A stretch of DNA of 64,000 nt, from contig CAVPBK010000006.1 in assembly GCA_963701855.1 (NCBI GenBank), positions 1,216,001 through 1,280,000 of the forward strand, read 5' to 3'. Made by a program: the position numbers. Below are positions 27,001-33,000 of this stretch, one piece after another. This stretch comes from Nitrospirota bacterium (GTDB lineage Bacteria; Nitrospirota; Nitrospiria; Nitrospirales; Nitrospiraceae). How positions within the stretch are numbered: the first letter of the stretch is position 1; every line of letters starts with the position of its first letter.

Positions 27001-30000
27001 AGCGCGTGAAAGGGTGTCGCTCGTCGCGCGCCCATCCCTGCCTGTCCGTTTCCCCAAGCCTCTCCCGCATCGCGCAAGACCTCAAGAAAGGTTTCATACT
27101 CTGCCTCGTCGTTGGATAACACATGGGCCGCATTGGTGATGAGCAGGACATAGCCCTTGGCCGGCAGCCATTCCAGATCGGTCAGACATTCCTCCAAGGC
27201 GTCCCAGTTGTGGCCGAAGTAGTCGGGAAAATCTAAGGCGCGGGCACATTCGGTCAACAGGCCGGCGGTGGTCCGGCACTTGACGCCCTGGATGACTTTC
27301 ATCACAAACTCGTTCGGTGGGCGCACCAGGGATTCAGCGCGCTGCCCGTCTGCGACCATCAGCAATGTGGTCCAGGGGGCCTTCGTCGATTGGAGATAGG
27401 CGGTCAATGTCTGTGAGTGTTTCGGGGTCATGGTATCTCATTCAGCGGAGTGAACGTTCGGTAGTGGTTACCGGTATAGTAGGCTCTGCCGGTGTCTTGC
27501 TCGATGACGATCCGTTCCGCGTCCCGCGAGCGACCGCGTATCTTCGGATTCACATCGTACTCGCGATAGTGACCGCGAGGCAGTAGTCTTTCTCGATTCT
27601 GAAACACCCCGCCGCCGACATATCCAGGGAGCGCTTTGCCCTCATGTTGCTGAATTGCTTCCAGCAGGTCTTTGGCTTTTTGCAGGGGATCCTTCGCGGC
27701 GCGATGTAATTGTCGATCGAGAGGCGGCGTGGCATTGTGAAGAGCTGGTCCTGTGGGCAGAACGGATGGGACAGAGTCAGACGGTACGGTCGTTTCAGGC
27801 GACGAACCGGCGTTGGGAGTGCCAGTAGGGCTGCCGACCAGTAGCCCACCAAGGACGACGAGTATTCCATAAATCTTCCAAGTTGGACCCATAGGTTCGC
27901 ACTCGTATCGCGAGGCGAGGAAGCACAGTACGAACCCTAGCATGCACAATCTTGGAGGATCAACGGGCGTAAGAGGGGGCGGGCGCTCGAGGCTGGGAAT
28001 TGTTGCTATCGCGTATCCGCAAGCGTAGCATCCACCTATTCATTTTGCTGAGAATGTTCTCCAGTCCGGTATTTCCCGGCCACCGAACGGGCAGGGACAA
28101 TGCCCACTTACACAGGGACGAGCCAACGAGGTACAGATTGGAATCCGCCGCAGACCGGCTTGAGTTTGTGACAGTCGAAGGGCTCTTGGCCTACGGGGAG
28201 ATGTTGGCGCGTTGTACTGCCGGTGAGGGAATTGCGCTCCCACCCATCCCGAATTCCTCAGCCGATCGACCGCAGCGAACCCGTGACGCTATGGAGAAGA
28301 TCAGAGCGTTTGTGCGTGGTGCGCAAGGGGGCTTTCCTGGGGCAGAGGAGTATCGGACTACCCGGCGCGCGCTGATCGAAGGGGGTTGCCGGGGTGACGA
28401 ACTGGTGTTCTTTGCCGCATGGAATACTCTCCTCGCAGCAGGCGAGTTGGCTCCGCTCCTCCGCATGCCGATCAGGTCAGTGCAGAAGCCGACCCACCGT
28501 CGACCGGTGGCGATCGTGCCGCGCGCGCAACTGACGCCGCAATTGGTCGAGGATCGTATCGTGCTGGACTTGGGCGAGGATCGGTTTTGGCTCTTGCCGC
28601 GCGATCTAACCGGTCGCACGCTTCTGTTCACGATGCGTCACGGTATTTCACGCATGGAGAGCAGCATCTATCGAGTCGGGCGCCGCATCGCAAACGTGCT
28701 GGATCCTGAGCGAGGCGTCCCCAAAGCCGACGCGGTCGGTGCAGCCCTGGCCCGGATGCTGGGCCTGGTGGGGCAACAATTGGACTTCCTGCACATTCAC
28801 AACTACCTCGATCCGCGCACCTTCGTCCATCTGGTGAGCCAGAGCCCCAATACACGGCAATTGTATGAACGGGTGATCGCGGCACTGATGCAGGCGCAGG
28901 CGGACCATGCTGAGGCACTCCCACCAGCCTGCGATCCCGCTTTAGACTCCCAGGATTTCGGTTGGGTCACAGGTCTGGAGAAGAAGGTAGAAGCCGAAGA
29001 AGCCGCAAAGGCATTCGGCGTGGACGTGCCCACGGCCAAGCGTCTGATTAAACATCCTCTCTACAGCTACCCGGGCGGGCATTCTTTCTTCGATGTCTAT
29101 GTGGATATCGTCGACGGCTTCCGCCGGCTCGGTCAGTCCCACCAGGGGAAGGCCGTGTGTGTGTACAGCCACAGCTCCACATTGCGGGCGCTCATGATTT
29201 ATCTCGATCCTCGTCCCTTTGGCGAAGCCTTTACCGAGTTTGGCGAATATAAGGAGGGACAGGATAACGTGGTCTTGTTGGCCTACGAACAGGGGCTCTT
29301 ATCCGGCTATTCCACCGCTGTGGGTTTGTCAGCGCGGGAACGGGCGGTGCGGGAGACCTGGGTGAAGGTCGAGCGCGAACGCAGAGACCGGATCACGCTC
29401 AAGCCCCGACAGATCAAGCGGATCGTGGCATTGGTCTCGGGTGGAGATTTTGCCGGTGCCGGCGCCGCGTTGAAAGAGTTGCGTGTGACAGGACACCGGT
29501 TTGGTCTGGAAGTCCACTTCGTCCGTCACGGGTTCTTAGGTCTGGCCAACAACTGGATCACAGCCGTGACCGAGCAGGATACCCGCGGGATGGGCAGCCA
29601 TGCGAGCAGTCCGATTGGGAGCAGCCGATTCGAAGATTTTAAAGACGAGCAGGTGCAGCAGGCCACCATGCGGCATCTTCGGCCCTATATGGAAGATGGA
29701 GCCTTGGTGGTCATCGGTGGGGACGGGAGTCTTCGAGGCGCGCGGGCGCTCTACGAAGGATTTGGAGTTCAGGCAGTAGGGATTCCCGGCTCGATCGACA
29801 ATAATATCGCGGGAACAACGTCCCTGGGTTTTCATTCGGCCCTGTCTCTGGCGAATCAATCCATCGAGTCGCTGAAAGCCACCAGTTCCGCCATGGGCAG
29901 CGTATTTTTTGTCGAGATTATGGGGGCGGGGTCCGGCCATCTTGCCCTCGCCTGTGCGTATCAGGCCAGAGCCGAAGGCCTCTTGATCAACGAGCATCCT

Positions 30001-33000
30001 GATCCCGACGCGTATATCGACGACTTCATCCTGGGCACGCTCACCCGCACCTTTGGCGTCCCAAACAAGAGTCATCTGTTTGTGGTGGCGGAACAGACGC
30101 CCCATCGCCATCACCCGGATGGCGGCGTACGAGGTCTGGTCGAGTATGTCGCCAGCACGCTCGCTACGTGGCCACGGTTTCAGGCGCTTCCCGGAGAATA
30201 TCGCCTTGCCCCTACGACCAAGGCCACGATCCTCGGGCACACGTTACGGGGGGCGCCCCCGACCCCCGAGGACAAGACCATCGGACAAGATCTGGCCTAT
30301 GAAGCGATTCGCCGTCTCGTCAAGGAGCCGGAGCGGGTGGTCGGGTGCATGTTGGCCTATCGCGGGCCAGGCACCATCGAGGCGATCCCACTCCACGCTG
30401 TGGCACCGAAGCAGTTCGACTGGGATATCTTTGCCCGAATGCACGGAAGCGAGCTGCCGTAGCAAGATGAATGGAGCGTGGCGCTTCACCGTGAAGGCCG
30501 TGCCCTGAGTCCATCTCTAACAGAATGCTGAAAAAGCCCGCCAGCCTGTCTCGTTTGTTTGGTTTGTCTTGTTTATTTGGTTGAACCAGACTAACCAGAT
30601 AGACAAGATGAACCGAATCAACCAGATGAACCTGGCGGCCTGCGTCTGAAATGGCGGTTGCGTTGTGGGCTTGGTGGTCGCTTGCTAGAATGCTCAATGT
30701 CAGACAGGCTCCTAGACATCATCGCGAGCAGAGCGGGAAAAGCAGGATGCGCGCGAAATGCGGGATGAGTCAGAATCTCATGTTCCGTCCGTCCCGTCTG
30801 TCTTGCACGGCGCACATTCCGATTGATCAATGACCAGTGACAGCCTTGTCTATGCGTAAAGCCAAAATCGTCTGCACCATTGGCCCTGCCAGCTATTCGC
30901 CCACCTTGCTGGATCAGTTAATTGAGAGCGGCATGGACGCGGCGCGACTCAACTTTTCTCATGGGACTCACGAATCGCATGTGCGCGCGATCAAAGCCAT
31001 TCGCGAAGCAGCGGATCGTCAGCGCGTGGCGGTCGCGATCATCCAGGACCTGCAAGGACCGAGGATCCGTGTTGGAGAAGTCAATCGGGATGGGCTCGAT
31101 TTGGTTGCCGGCCAGACTGTGAGACTCGTGACGACGCTACTCCGGTCCGGCGGTCAACTCGGCGCACAGTCGATCGCTCCATCCGGCATGTTTGAGATCC
31201 CGGTGACGTACCAATACCTGGTGCGGGATGTCCAGCCAGGCGCCCGCGTCCTGATTGACGATGGATTAATCGAGCTGATTGCTGATCGGATTATCGGCGG
31301 TGCCGTCGAATGCGGGGTCGTGACCGGGGGACGACTCACCTCGCACAAGGGAATGAACTTGCCGGATACTCGCATTAGCGCCCCAACTCTGACAGACAAA
31401 GATCGGGACGATCTCCGGCTCGGCATCGCTCAGGGGGTGGACTATGTTGCCCTCTCGTTTGTCAGAGGTCCCGATGACGTGATGGCCGCAAGGAAGTTAG
31501 TGGCCGACTGGGGCGGGGACGTACCGATTATTGCAAAGATCGAAAGGCCGGAAGCGGTTGAGTCCTTGGACGCGATTCTTGATCAGGCGGACGGTGTGAT
31601 GGTTGCGCGGGGTGATCTGGGAGTGGAGATGGGGCCGGAGGCGGTTCCGCTCATACAGAAACGTATCATCGCCGAAGCCAACCGCCGCCGCCGCCTCGTG
31701 ATCACGGCCACTCAGATGTTAGAGTCCATGACGCAGCACACGCGCCCGACAAGGGCCGAAGCGTCGGATGTGGCTAATGCCGTGCTTGATGGGACTGATG
31801 CCGTTATGCTGTCCGCAGAAACGGCGATAGGACAGCACCCGGTTGAAACAGTCCGAGTCATGGACCGAATCATTCGAGCCGCAGAAGAAGGGGCTCGATC
31901 ATGGTGTATGCGCTCGTTCGACGCGCCACAGGGGGAAGGTTCATTCCCGGAGGCCATTTGCCATTCGGCCTCTTCTGCAGCCTCAGCCATCGGGGCAAGC
32001 GTCATCGTGGCATTTAGCGAACGGGGTGCGACTGCGCGCTTGCTGTCAAAACAGCGACCCGACGCGTCAATTATTTCATTGACTCCATTTGAGTCCGTAC
32101 GGCAGCGGATGGCGCTGTACTGGGGTGTGATCCCTCATACAATGCGGCAGATCGCTCAAACCGATGAGCGGATCGATGAAGCGGAGCGCCGCCTGAAGAC
32201 CGAGGGGCTGGCGACAACGGGGCAGCGGATCGTGATTTTATCGGGGACCAGGATTGGTCAGCCCGGGGAGACCAATTTGATGAAGCTACACACAGTCGGG
32301 TGAGCTGAGCAAGCTGAGCGGGCTCTGTGCCCGCACAGAGCCTGGAGGAGTGCAGATTGGGAGAAAATAGTACACGATGATGCCTAACGGTATGGGGCGG
32401 CTAGTGTTTATTCTGTGTCAGTTGCTTGTTCTGGTGTTGTCGGCCGGAGATGGACTCGCGCAGACCGGATCCCTCAAGCACTCACCGGCGGATGTGGTAA
32501 AACGATATCTGGCGCTCGATTATAAGGGGGCGCGGCTCGATGCCATGTCGGCCGAAACGGTCGCGTCCTACACGAGTTGGAGTGAGGAGCCGGCGTGGGG
32601 GCATGTCGTCGTGACGCGAGGTTTTGTCGTGGCTGAGCAGTACCGCCAATGGGAGGTGATCGATAGGCTGGAAGTCGTGATTCCAGTCACCTTTCAGGTC
32701 ATAGGCTCGGTGTATCTGGAAACCGCCGGGTTCATCCAGGAGACTGAAACAGAAGAGGTTCGATTTCGCGTGAAAGCCGTTAAGAATCGATGGAAGATTG
32801 TCGAGCCGATGCTTCCCCCTCATGTGGGGCAAAAGCGGATGGCGAATTTTGTGCGCGAAGCCCGGGGGAAGGAAACCGACCCGGCAAAGCAAGACCGTCT
32901 GGGGGTATTACAAGAAGAGTTGCGAAAGGCAAAGTGATGATGGGGAAGACCTCGGTCGAGCTGTTGATCTTCGATTTGGATGGAACGCTCATCGAGTCCA

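What a model noticed while it worked through the whole genome (the two positions that open the first line are those of the whole stretch)
28054..30462. Nitrospira 'phosphofructokinase' is a three-part fusion: unknown N-domain + intact histidine-phosphatase domain + diverg [...]
g02596 (802 aa), next to pyruvate kinase, is named 6-phosphofructokinase in databases, but the PFK fold fills only residues ~455-790. Residues ~190-410 are a histidine-phosphatase (PGM/fructose-2,6-bisphosphatase superfamily) domain whose R-H-G (195-197) and second His (H373) are invariant in 24 orthologues, preceded by a conserved ~190-aa part of no known family. The PFK domain keeps GGDGS and the first Asp of TIDND but has TIDNN and MGA for TIDND and MGR, changes of the kind that mark the non-catalytic, sugar-bisphosphate-sensing half of eukaryotic PFK. 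It is a candidate kinase/phosphatase (or sensor/phosphatase) switch at the fructose-6-P/fructose-bisphosphate node of an rTCA autotroph.
Evidence so far: pfam.tsv: His_Phos_1 285-389 (i-E 5e-6), PFK 456-753 (1e-54); Swiss-Prot hits cover only 454-787 (32% to Thermotoga PfkA). Search of 5.8e9 proteins: 440 hits; the best 120 are 675-805 aa, 71-95% identical over 84-99% of the query, named Nitrospira/Nitrospiraceae where named. Alignment of 24: invariant R195 H196 G197 S199, H373 S374 S375 R378, G463 G464 D465, G556 D557 G558 S559, I581 D582 N584, M623 G624 A625. Profile vs PDB: only the PFK part matches (human PFKL 7lw1 E 6e-38, E. coli 1pfk); the printed alignment sets the query's TIDNN/MGA stretches against catalytic SIDND/MGR and regulatory-half TISNN/MGG of PFKL. 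Pfam on residues 180-430 alone: His_Phos_1 E 7e-7, over cut-off; hhalign pair [...]
(Added by a program. Inside this text positions count along the whole contig: contig position 1,216,001 is position 1 of the stretch shown here. "Call 12" and the like, gene names such as g00115 and contig names such as C1 are that model's own, and its searches are not shown. The text may have been shortened before it was handed on; [...] marks where a part breaks off. The agent that wrote the report below was given it as the finding of a first reader that could run no searches.)

Follow-up and report, generated by a model that had tools for sequence, protein, structure and literature searches.

The report
Phosphatase-capped phosphofructokinase of nitrite oxidisers
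Nitrite-oxidising Nitrospira carry a conserved, expressed 774-residue protein that joins an unknown helical cap, a remodelled histidine-phosphatase-fold domain and an atypical phosphofructokinase domain, most likely a self-regulated valve on sugar breakdown whose chemistry has never been tested.

Summary
Window 28138-30462 (+) encodes a three-part protein. The real start is probably the TTG at 28138, giving 774 aa, not 802.

- **Cap:** a helical N-terminal domain with no family or fold match.
- **Middle:** a histidine-phosphatase (HP) fold at residues 188-425 (Z 16.7).
- **C-terminus:** an ATP-type PFK domain at 455-790.

"Intact" overstates the HP domain. RHG, the second His and a dPGM-type Lys are invariant, but the canonical second Arg aligns with Asn266 and the catalytic Glu with Ser299.

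The PFK domain keeps the ATP/Mg residues and the catalytic Asp127. In 14 of 14 Nitrospiria copies it has D129N, R162S/T, R171A and R243K, and a dismantled ADP/PEP effector site. Nitrospinae relatives keep D129, R162 and R243.

All three parts are under purifying selection. The N. marina orthologue is detected in a published proteome. The genome also has a canonical PPi-type PFK and a class I FBPase.

Best reading (0.45): a PFK whose lost allosteric site is replaced by a fused HP-fold sensor or weak phosphatase. A true kinase/phosphatase pair is not excluded.

This scan flagged the same family before in two other genomes. Five literature searches found no description of it.

The parts
28138..30462 (+). 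Whole gene, 774 codons plus stop, from the probable TTG start. The annotated ATG start at 28054 adds 28 residues that orthologues lack.
   Evidence: ORF. Orthologues of about 774 aa start at residue 29. GAGG lies 10 nt upstream of the TTG.
28153..28503 (+). N-terminal helical cap, residues ~34-150 in 802-aa numbering. Invariant C112 (A1), W123 and N124. No known family or fold.
   Evidence: No Pfam or NCBIfam hit. AF2 pLDDT is about 90 in context. Modelled alone: pLDDT 80, pTM 0.68. Foldseek best E 0.79; VIA best Z 5.9. The Atlas search gave no usable hit.
28504..28614 (+). Connector with a beta-hairpin (strands 168-174 and 177-182) leading into the HP sheet.
   Evidence: DSSP on the model.
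28615..29328 (+). Histidine-phosphatase-fold domain, residues 188-425.
   Evidence: VIA Z 16.7 to 4ij5, 16.5 to 1h2e, 14.6-14.7 to FBPase-2 and 14.5 to Shb17. Foldseek E 1.5e-8. Pfam His_Phos_1 is over its cut-off. hhalign to canonical HPs of the same genome gives probability 81%.
28636..28644 (+). R195-H196-G197, the phospho-acceptor His motif.
   Evidence: R195 and H196 are invariant in 16 of 16 and 18 of 18 sequences. They align to the RHG of PhoE and of canonical HPs.
28843..28854 (+). S264-P265-N266-T267, invariant. N266 sits where canonical HPs have the second catalytic Arg.
   Evidence: Invariant columns. hhalign register. Helix start at 265.
28948..28962 (+). S299-Q-D-F-G303. S299 sits where canonical HPs have the catalytic Glu.
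   Evidence: hhalign. S in 15 of 16 sequences; F302 and G303 invariant.
28981..28983 (+). K310, invariant. It aligns with the conserved Lys 11 residues after the catalytic Glu of dPGM-type enzymes.
   Evidence: Its identity with the dPGM substrate-binding Lys100 is recalled, not tested.
29170..29178 (+). H373-S374-S375, the second His of the HP core.
   Evidence: Invariant. Aligned to the His of PhoE and of canonical HPs.
29329..29415 (+). Linker helix, residues 426-454.
   Evidence: Helix 427-445 in the model.
29416..30423 (+). ATP-type PFK domain, residues 455-790.
   Evidence: Pfam PFK E 4e-54. PDB sequence matches to PFKL, E. coli PfkA and others. Residue table.
29791..29805 (+). S580-I-D582-N-N584. 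In E. coli PfkA numbering: T125S, D127 kept, D129N.
29899..29928 (+). S616 (= R162 of PfkA) through M623-G624-A625 (= M169, G170, R171A).
30837..32303 (+). Pyruvate kinase, the conserved neighbour. Its real start is probably the ATG at 30852.
   Evidence: Pfam PK and PK_C. Adjacent in 12 of 20 other Nitrospiria loci.

Best explanation
The protein is a specialised ATP-type phosphofructokinase of nitrite oxidisers that fix carbon by the reverse TCA cycle. Its control has moved from the classical ADP/PEP effector site to a fused N-terminal module.

**Shown**
- The C-terminal domain keeps the ATP/Mg and catalytic-base residues.
- It has lost the basic residues of the PfkA effector site in every lineage that carries the fusion.
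- The cap plus HP-fold domain is one compact, conserved unit. It keeps a phosphate pocket (Arg-His, second His, a dPGM-type Lys) but lacks the canonical second Arg and the acid/base Glu.

**Inferred**
- The HP-fold domain binds, or is slowly phosphorylated by, a phosphorylated glycolytic intermediate such as a phosphoglycerate or a sugar bisphosphate.
- Through contact with the PFK domain it gates kinase activity.
- The constitutively made protein therefore stays silent during autotrophic, gluconeogenic growth and opens when stored sugar is burned, alongside the neighbouring pyruvate kinase.
- In Nitrospiria the sugar-phosphate site is itself remodelled (R162S, R243K, R171A, D129N). Activity towards fructose-6-P may be weak, or the preferred substrate may differ.
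For: **PFK domain, 14 of 14 Nitrospiria copies**
- Kept: R72, D103, G104, S105, G124, D127, M169, G170, E222, H249, R252.
- Effector site changed: R21K, R25V/A/S, R54E/D, R154K, K213N.
- The effector site is also lost in the Nitrospinae copy (K, D, E, E, D) and the Desulfatibia copy (K, I, Q, H, G).
- Those two distant copies keep TIDND/SIDND. P0132 also keeps R162, R243 and GGDAPGMNA. The ancestral fusion therefore looks like a working kinase.

**N-terminal module**
- N+HP folds as one unit: pLDDT 84, pTM 0.84.
- The HP fold scores Z 16.7.
- The pocket residues R195, H196, K310 and H373 are invariant, while N266 and S299 replace the canonical Arg and Glu.

**Selection**
- Six same-genus comparisons give dN/dS of 0.15-0.25 for the cap, 0.07-0.12 for HP and 0.05-0.10 for PFK.

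**Genomic setting**
- In 3 of 20 fusion-bearing family genomes the fusion is the only PFK-family gene. One of them, G195, is a closed genome.
- pyk is adjacent in 12 of 20 other Nitrospiria loci.

**Expression**
- The 771-aa N. marina orthologue sits next to pykF. It gave 46/55/51 spectral counts at atmospheric O2 and 38/19/34 at low O2.
- The 418-aa PFK gave 5/4/5 and 21/16/11 (PMC8115632, supplementary files 2 and 4).
Against: - Four residues that matter for PfkA catalysis or F6P binding are changed in all 14 Nitrospiria copies: D129N, R162S/T, R171A, R243K. All NCBIfam PFK models score below their cut-offs. Kinase activity on F6P is unproven.
- The invariance of the nucleophile His fits a working phosphatase as well as it fits a sensor.
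- Adjacency to pyk is absent in 8 of 20 Nitrospiria loci and in 5 of 6 Nitrospinae loci.
- Genomes without the fusion keep the pyk orthologue (18 of 20) and a phosphorylase (18 of 20), so there is no co-loss.
- The assignment of N266 and S299 rests on a profile alignment of 81% probability and on secondary-structure register, not on superposed coordinates.
Confidence: 0.45

Rival explanations
1. It is a true bifunctional kinase/phosphatase. The PFK domain makes a sugar bisphosphate (fructose-1,6-P2, sedoheptulose-1,7-P2 or a signalling bisphosphate) and the HP domain hydrolyses it. The ratio of the two activities sets a metabolite level, in the manner of eukaryotic PFK-2/FBPase-2.
For: - The nucleophile His, the second His and many loop residues of the HP core are invariant across phyla.
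- The HP model resembles FBPase-2 (Z 14.6-14.7) and the sedoheptulose/fructose bisphosphatase Shb17 (Z 14.5).
- An acidic residue sits next to S299 (D/E298) in 15 of 16 sequences and could act as the proton donor.
- Both domains have a low dN/dS.
- Pyruvate kinase, an enzyme often activated by sugar phosphates (recalled), is the conserved neighbour.
Against: - The canonical second Arg and the acid/base Glu are replaced by Asn and Ser.
- FBPase-2 and Shb17 are not the best structural matches. Generic phosphatases PspA and PhoE rank higher.
- The genome already has a class I FBPase, a reversible PPi-type PFK and transaldolase.
- No fructose-2,6-P2 signalling is known in bacteria (recalled).
Confidence: 0.2
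2. The PFK-like domain is non-catalytic and senses a sugar phosphate or nucleotide. The HP domain is the working enzyme, a phosphatase.
For: - D129N, R162S/T, R171A and R243K are fixed in Nitrospiria.
- The domain scores below every NCBIfam PFK cut-off.
- The NN and MG(A/G) motifs recall the regulatory half of PFKL.
Against: - The regulatory half of PFKL has also lost the D103 and D127 equivalents (GGFEA, TISNN). This domain keeps them, and R72, in 14 of 14 copies.
- The Nitrospinae copy has a nearly canonical active site.
- The PFK domain is the most conserved part: 70-82% identity against 50-68% for the cap.
- The HP domain itself lacks two canonical catalytic residues.
Confidence: 0.15
3. 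Neither domain turns over substrate. The protein is a metabolite-binding regulator or scaffold, for example of the adjacent pyruvate kinase.
For: - Both catalytic centres depart from the canon.
- The gene stays next to pyk in three different orientations.
- Both proteins are detected in N. marina.
Against: - The catalytic base, the Mg/ATP residues and the nucleophile His are strictly kept.
- pyk persists without the fusion in 18 of 20 fusion-less genomes.
- No interaction with PK was tested.
Confidence: 0.1

Closest known systems
Bacterial ATP-dependent 6-phosphofructokinase PfkA (E. coli 1PFK/2PFK, Geobacillus 3PFK/4PFK; Pfam PF00365, TIGR02482)
   Same: - Same fold and domain length; Pfam E 4e-54.
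- About 31% identity to E. coli PfkA.
- Carries the ATP-type markers G104 and G124.
- Keeps R72, D103, S105, D127, E222, H249 and R252.
   Different: - Carries a 425-residue N-terminal module.
- D129N, R162S/T, R171A and R243K.
- GGDAPGMNA has become GGDFAGAGA.
- The effector site is dismantled.
- Scores below the NCBIfam cut-offs.
- The nearest stand-alone PFKs are only 33-36% identical.
Histidine phosphatase superfamily, branch 1 (PhoE 1H2E, PspA 4IJ5, dPGM 1E58, CobC; Pfam PF00300)
   Same: - Same fold: Z 16.3-16.7 with 195-208 aligned residues.
- RHG, the second His, the PGG(E/H)S motif and the Lys 11 residues after the Glu position all align.
   Different: - The canonical second Arg is replaced by an invariant Asn, and the catalytic Glu by Ser.
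- There is a long inserted helix at 221-245.
- It is preceded by a private helical cap.
- Only 8 of the 120 listed orthologue clusters carry a precomputed PF00300 hit.
Eukaryotic 6-phosphofructo-2-kinase/fructose-2,6-bisphosphatase (1BIF, 5HR5)
   Same: - One chain joins a sugar-phosphate kinase to an HP-fold domain.
- The HP model matches the FBPase-2 domain at Z 13.8-14.7.
   Different: - The kinase there is a P-loop NMP-kinase-like domain placed N-terminal to the phosphatase (recalled).
- Here the kinase has the PFK-1 fold and is C-terminal.
- The HP catalytic Arg and Glu are not kept.
Regulatory C-terminal half of eukaryotic PFK-1 (human PFKL 7LW1)
   Same: It is a PFK fold with ...NN in place of ...ND and with no Arg after MG.
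   Different: The PFKL half has also lost the D103 and D127 equivalents (GGFEA, TISNN). This domain keeps both.

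Membership tests
PfkA-type ATP-dependent phosphofructokinase (PF00365 / TIGR02482) | PFK fold and Pfam gathering score | tested here: met
   PF00365 scores 184 bits against a cut-off of 30.9, over profile positions 1-275 of 277.
PfkA-type ATP-dependent phosphofructokinase (PF00365 / TIGR02482) | Reaches the curated NCBIfam equivalog or subfamily cut-off | tested here: not met
   NF002872 scores 178.9 against 253 and TIGR02482 scores 168.1 against 371. All 11 PFK models are below their cut-offs.
PfkA-type ATP-dependent phosphofructokinase (PF00365 / TIGR02482) | ATP/Mg site and catalytic base (G11, R72, D103, G104, S105, D127) | tested here: met
   All are kept in the window copy. R72, D103, G104 and D127 are kept in 14 of 14 Nitrospiria copies and S105 in 13 of 14, with one Thr.
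PfkA-type ATP-dependent phosphofructokinase (PF00365 / TIGR02482) | Fructose-6-P site and transition-state residues (D129, R162, R171, R243, H249, R252) | tested here: not met
   D129N, R162S/T, R171A and R243K in 14 of 14 copies. H249 and R252 are kept.
PfkA-type ATP-dependent phosphofructokinase (PF00365 / TIGR02482) | ADP/PEP effector site (R21, R25, R54, R154, E187, K213) | tested here: not met
   The window copy reads K, V, E, K, E, N. Only E187 is kept.
PfkA-type ATP-dependent phosphofructokinase (PF00365 / TIGR02482) | ATP-dependent phosphorylation of fructose-6-P | not testable with these tools
   This needs an enzyme assay.
Histidine phosphatase superfamily branch 1 (PF00300) | HP alpha/beta fold | tested here: met
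   Z 16.7 to 4ij5 and 16.5 to 1h2e over residues 188-425. Foldseek E 1.5e-8 with TM 0.74 on the target.
Histidine phosphatase superfamily branch 1 (PF00300) | RHG nucleophile motif and second His | tested here: met
   R195, H196 and H373 are invariant. They align to PhoE and to canonical HPs.
Histidine phosphatase superfamily branch 1 (PF00300) | Second catalytic Arg (Arg58/62 equivalent) | tested here: not met
   hhalign places invariant N266 at that column. R268, two residues later, is Arg in only 10 of 16 sequences. This rests on a profile alignment, not on coordinates.
Histidine phosphatase superfamily branch 1 (PF00300) | Acid/base Glu (Glu85/89 equivalent) | tested here: not met
   S299 aligns with the Glu and is Ser in 15 of 16 sequences. 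The neighbouring residue 298 is D or E in 15 of 16.
Histidine phosphatase superfamily branch 1 (PF00300) | Phosphatase or mutase activity through phospho-His | not testable with these tools
   This needs an assay or labelling.
PFK-2/FBPase-2 bifunctional enzymes | P-loop 6PF2K kinase domain N-terminal to the HP domain | tested here: not met
   No family other than PFK and His_Phos_1 scored at E 0.01 or better, and AA_kinase at E 0.13 was the only other family listed. The kinase here has the PFK-1 fold and is C-terminal. The definition of the family is recalled.
PFK-2/FBPase-2 bifunctional enzymes | HP domain of the FBPase-2 type | tested here: inconclusive
   Z 13.8-14.7 to 1c7z, 5hr5 and 1bif, below the generic phosphatases at Z 16-17.

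The most novel reading that the evidence does not exclude
Nitrite oxidisers that fix carbon by the reverse TCA cycle may have built, from different parts, a bacterial counterpart of the eukaryotic PFK-2/FBPase-2 logic. A PFK-1-fold kinase and a remodelled histidine phosphatase on one chain would make and destroy a sugar-bisphosphate signal. That signal would decide whether the neighbouring pyruvate kinase and glycolysis run, or whether carbon keeps flowing towards gluconeogenesis.
Probability: 0.12. Interest if true: 0.85.

Novelty: new variant of a known kind. Interest (0 to 1): 0.6.

Why it matters
Nitrospira, including the complete ammonia oxidisers, and Nitrospina carry out much of global nitrite oxidation. 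They fix CO2 by the reverse TCA cycle, so they must keep glycolysis and gluconeogenesis apart. How they do this is unknown.

This protein is conserved and is detected in a published proteome. It sits at the classical control point, has lost the classical PFK control site, and has gained a module found nowhere else. Databases call it simply "6-phosphofructokinase", and metabolic reconstructions count it as such.

If the kinase is weak, has another substrate, or is gated by a new sensor, the statement that all Nitrospira have "complete glycolysis" needs qualifying. The HP-fold module may also be a new way of regulating PFK.

Tried and rejected
**Fold and family searches for the N-terminal cap**
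- The cap was folded alone.
- Foldseek gave a best E of 0.79.
- VIA-wide gave a best Z of 5.9, with weak winged-helix-like rows of about 60 aligned residues.
- The Atlas feature search gave no usable hit.
- No fold can be named, and this does not prove that the fold is new.

**PDB sequence search with residues 1-450**
- It returned only a designed ThreeFoil protein at E 1e-4, taken as chance.

**Docking of the N+HP module on the PFK domain (complex prediction)**
- The verdict was weak support: score 0.56, best of 3 controls 0.00.
- The runs agreed in at least 31% of contacts, and the partner's pLDDT was at least 79.
- By the tool's own counts, 116 of 157 solved complexes and 2 of 215 mismatched pairs reached the mark. 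Only 18 of those solved complexes, and both mismatches that passed, scored 0.60 or under.
- No interface was given, so this is not used as evidence.

**Co-loss tests in 40 family genomes**
- The sample was 20 genomes with the fusion and 20 without.
- The pyk orthologue is kept in 18 of 20 fusion-less genomes.
- A phosphorylase is present in 38 of 40 genomes.
- Neither result links the fusion to pyk or to glycogen use.

**Need for a sedoheptulose-bisphosphate route**
- The genome has two transaldolase-family hits, so that route is not required.

**Low synonymous divergence in the linker**
- dS was 0.044 in 3 of 6 same-genus comparisons.
- A sliding count of synonymous variation shows no outlier there: 0.44, within a gene-wide range of 0.40-0.76. 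It is noise.

**Genomic context of the stand-alone N+HP proteins P0189 and P0190**
- Two metagenome scans found no relative.
- Whether a separate PFK gene follows them is unknown.

**Neighbours in the 8 loci without pyk**
- Pfam on 28 flanking ORFs shows no recurring partner.

**Other scans**
- A promoter/terminator consensus scan of 27700-31000 found 0 sites.
- The RNA evidence for this very locus was not obtained. The runs found hold only small shares of the stretch, and the read-laying run did not complete.
- The search for related loci with alignment A2 failed because the alignment has no conserved stretch long enough to search with.

Full report
**1. The gene.**
- The ORF runs 28000..30462 on the + strand. 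The annotated ATG at 28054 gives 802 aa.
- The best 120 of 440 hits in the 5.8e9-protein search are 71-95% identical and 675-805 aa long, most of them 768-794 aa. In alignment they begin at residue 29 of the 802-aa form.
- That codon is a TTG at window 28138, with GAGG 10 nt upstream. The protein is therefore most likely 774 aa.

**2. Domain content.**
- Pfam finds PFK at 456-753 (E 4.3e-54) and His_Phos_1 at 285-389 (E 9.8e-6, 25.8 bits against a cut-off of 21.7). It finds nothing in residues 1-189.
- NCBIfam lists 11 PFK models, all below their curated cut-offs. The best is NF002872 at 178.9 bits against 253.
- Only 8 of the 120 listed orthologue clusters carry a precomputed PF00300 hit. This explains why databases name the protein simply 6-phosphofructokinase.

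**3. Structure of the front half.**
- AlphaFold2 on residues 1-450, with a 16-row alignment that includes distant members, gave pLDDT 84 and pTM 0.84. The cap and the HP domain are modelled as one compact unit.
- Foldseek against the PDB returns only histidine-phosphatase-superfamily entries at the top. The best are PhoE 1h2e (E 1.5e-8, TM 0.74 on the target), dPGMs, TIGAR and Rv2419c.
- VIA-align against 48,161 chains gives these scores over residues 188-425:

| Match | Z |
|---|---|
| PspA 4ij5 | 16.7 |
| PhoE | 16.5 |
| FBPase-2 domains | 14.6-14.7 |
| Shb17 | 14.5 |

- Unrelated folds score below Z 5. The HP fold is therefore established.
- The cap (about 34-150) was modelled alone: pLDDT 80, pTM 0.68. 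It has no convincing match: Foldseek best E 0.79, VIA best Z 5.9, no Atlas hit.

**4. State of the HP active site.**
- Across 16 sequences that include Nitrospinae, Desulfatibia and two stand-alone forms, the invariant columns include R195, H196, S203, G209, S264-P265-N266-T267, F302, G303, T306, K310, P335, G342, H373-S374-S375, E401, Y419 and G424.
- A profile search of the PDB aligns RHG and THSS to the two His motifs of PhoE (E 0.002).
- hhalign against three canonical HP proteins of the same genome (probability 81%, E 1.2e-5) gives this mapping:

| Canonical HP position | This protein |
|---|---|
| RHG | RHG |
| Arg58 | N266 |
| Glu85 | S299 (Ser in 15 of 16) |
| Lys96, 11 residues after the Glu | invariant K310 |
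| second His | H373 |

- From memory, not tested here: that Lys position is the substrate-binding Lys100 of dPGM.
- R268 is Arg in only 10 of 16 sequences. Residue 298 is acidic in 15 of 16.
- The pocket is therefore conserved but is not the canonical catalytic set. Two of the five core residues are replaced, and the replacements are themselves conserved across phyla. This points to a changed function, not to decay.
- This mapping rests on profile alignment and helix register (helix 265-280), not on coordinates.

**5. State of the PFK domain.**
- I aligned E. coli PfkA (locus L041), 14 Nitrospiria copies, the two distant fusions and the genome's own second PFK. I then read the functional positions.
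- Kept in 14 of 14 Nitrospiria copies: R72, D103, G104, G124 (the ATP-type markers), D127, M169, G170, E187, E222, H249, R252.
- Changed in 14 of 14: D129N, R162S/T, R171A, R243K. In the effector site: R21K, R25V/A/S, R54E/D, R154K, K213N.
- GGDAPGMNA reads GGDFAGAGA here.
- The Nitrospinae protein P0132 keeps GGDAPGMNA, TIDND, R162, R243, H249 and R252, and differs at R171 (Ala). The Desulfatibia protein P0155 keeps SIDND and MGR.
- Both distant proteins also lack the effector-site arginines. Loss of the effector site is therefore common to all fusions, while the F6P-site changes are specific to Nitrospiria.
- The regulatory half of human PFKL reads GGFEA, TISNN and MGG in the printed alignment. 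It is more degenerate than this domain.
- What the E. coli mutants at these positions do is recalled, not checked: D127 essential, R162 and R243 raising the Km for F6P, R171 mild.

**6. Family and distribution.**
- An exhaustive phmmer search of 1.84e9 representatives with residues 1-450 found only 86 proteins, mostly fragments.
- The distant full-length members are P0132 (38% identity; Nitrospinae MAG) and P0155 (32%; Ca. Desulfatibia).
- The same search also found two stand-alone N+HP proteins of 409 and 425 aa.
- Six Nitrospina/Nitrospinaceae MAGs carry the fusion.
- In 401 genomes of the phylum, 70 matched. Three of those are weak partial hits, so 67 are real, and all 67 are in the window's own class. 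By family the counts are f1 51/75, f2 8/40, f4 3/3 and f7 2/3, and by genus g1 8/12.
- Copies are broken in G213 and G216, and the G210 copy has an in-frame TAG.
- The PFK domain has no close stand-alone relative. Every hit at 53% identity or more appears to be a fragment of the fusion. The next hits are PFKs of about 325 aa at 33-36% identity.

**7. Selection.**
- Nei-Gojobori estimates against six same-genus orthologues (dS 0.24-0.71) give dN/dS of 0.15-0.25 for the cap, 0.07-0.12 for HP and 0.05-0.10 for PFK.
- Identity to the window copy across 13 other Nitrospiria is 50-68% for the cap, 58-73% for N+HP and 70-82% for PFK.

**8. Metabolic and genomic setting.**
- The genome has a second, canonical PPi-type PFK of 428 aa with GGDDT, KTIDND and MGRKAGH.
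- It has a class I FBPase, no GlpX or FBPase_3 hit, and transaldolase.
- In 20 other Nitrospiria loci, pyk is adjacent in 12. Eight of those pyk genes are 71-76% identical to the window's and four are 36-37% identical. All 12 are head-to-head with the fusion.
- In this window, and in three same-genus genomes, the two genes are co-directional. The flanking order is otherwise the same as in L023. The fusion gene alone has therefore been inverted.
- The other 8 loci share no recurring neighbour.
- Of 20 fusion-less family genomes, 18 keep the pyk orthologue, 11 have the short PFK and 9 have no PFK-family gene.
- Of 20 fusion-bearing genomes, 17 also have the short PFK. In the other 3, including closed genome G195, the fusion is the only PFK-family gene.

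**9. Expression.**
- I read the supplementary tables of the N. marina proteome paper, PMC8115632 (files 2 and 4, searched), and passages of its main text.
- The 771-aa "putative 6-phosphofructokinase" pfkA_2, encoded next to pykF, gave 46/55/51 spectral counts at atmospheric O2 and 38/19/34 at low O2. The difference is not significant.
- The 418-aa pfkA_1 gave 5/4/5 and 21/16/11, a significant rise.
- The protein is therefore made during autotrophic growth on nitrite. An unregulated ATP-PFK would waste ATP against FBPase under those conditions.

**10. Interpretation.**
- The data best fit a PFK-family enzyme whose classical allosteric site was lost and whose control passed to a fused, conserved, HP-fold module. 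That module still has a phosphate pocket but lacks the usual acid/base machinery. It would be a metabolite sensor or a slow phospho-acceptor.
- A true kinase/phosphatase pair, a sensor-PFK with a working phosphatase, and a non-catalytic regulator all remain possible. Only assays can decide.

**11. Prior knowledge.**
- Five full-text searches found no paper that describes the fusion.
- One genome paper, PMC9239080 (passages read), reports that streamlined freshwater Nitrospira lack phosphofructokinase. This fits the losses seen in small genomes.
- Earlier notes of this scan had flagged the same family in two other genomes with a similar reading.
- I checked their leads myself: expression in a cultured relative and presence in Nitrospina.

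Noticed in passing
window 28138-30462 compared with L021-L040: The fusion gene alone is inverted in this lineage. Here, and in three same-genus genomes, it is co-directional with pyk. In 12 of 12 other adjacent cases the two genes are head-to-head. In G189 they are tail-to-tail. The flanking barnase/barstar and aminotransferase order is otherwise kept.
   Followed up: partly
window 26871-27949 (-): A barnase-like ribonuclease (Pfam Ribonuclease, E 8e-13) and an overlapping barstar gene (E 5e-29) lie directly beside the fusion. The pair is conserved at that place in five other loci from several genera (L023, L024, L033, L035, L038).
   Followed up: partly
window 21853-23156 (-): A GmrSD_N-domain ORF of 317 aa is followed by a 117-aa ORF that matches only the first 49 positions of the XamI restriction endonuclease. 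This may be a remnant of a restriction system.
   Followed up: no
window 30837-30860: The pyk ORF is listed from the GTG at 30837. Orthologue alignments begin 3-5 residues later, and an ATG lies at 30852, so the real start is probably there.
   Followed up: no
L005 1468-2079 (-) = G000:C6:1534894-1535463: This is a second GpmA-like paralogue, 48% identical to the one in L004. Its middle third reads as unrelated, Arg- and Gly-rich sequence, while both ends align. It looks like a doubly frameshifted or decaying copy.
   Followed up: no
G210:C1:1391715-1393880; G213:C8:8626-9531; G216:C17:192954-194188: Broken copies of the fusion occur in otherwise complete genomes: an in-frame TAG in G210, three fragments in G213 and a frameshift in G216. 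The gene is also missing from 24 of 75 family genomes, among them the two smallest fusion-less genomes listed (1.7-1.8 Mb). It is therefore dispensable.
   Followed up: partly
window 33541-36662 (+): A pair of M16 (insulinase-type) peptidase genes and a 186-aa ORF with no family hit follow pyk. The three are syntenic with pyk in six other loci.
   Followed up: no
L002 1198-2484 (-) = G000:C1: The canonical PPi-type PFK sits next to a tandem universal-stress-protein-like ORF and a formate/nitrite-transporter-like ORF, judged by eye from the translations. Its N. marina orthologue rises about 3.5-fold in spectral counts at low O2 (PMC8115632 supplement).
   Followed up: no
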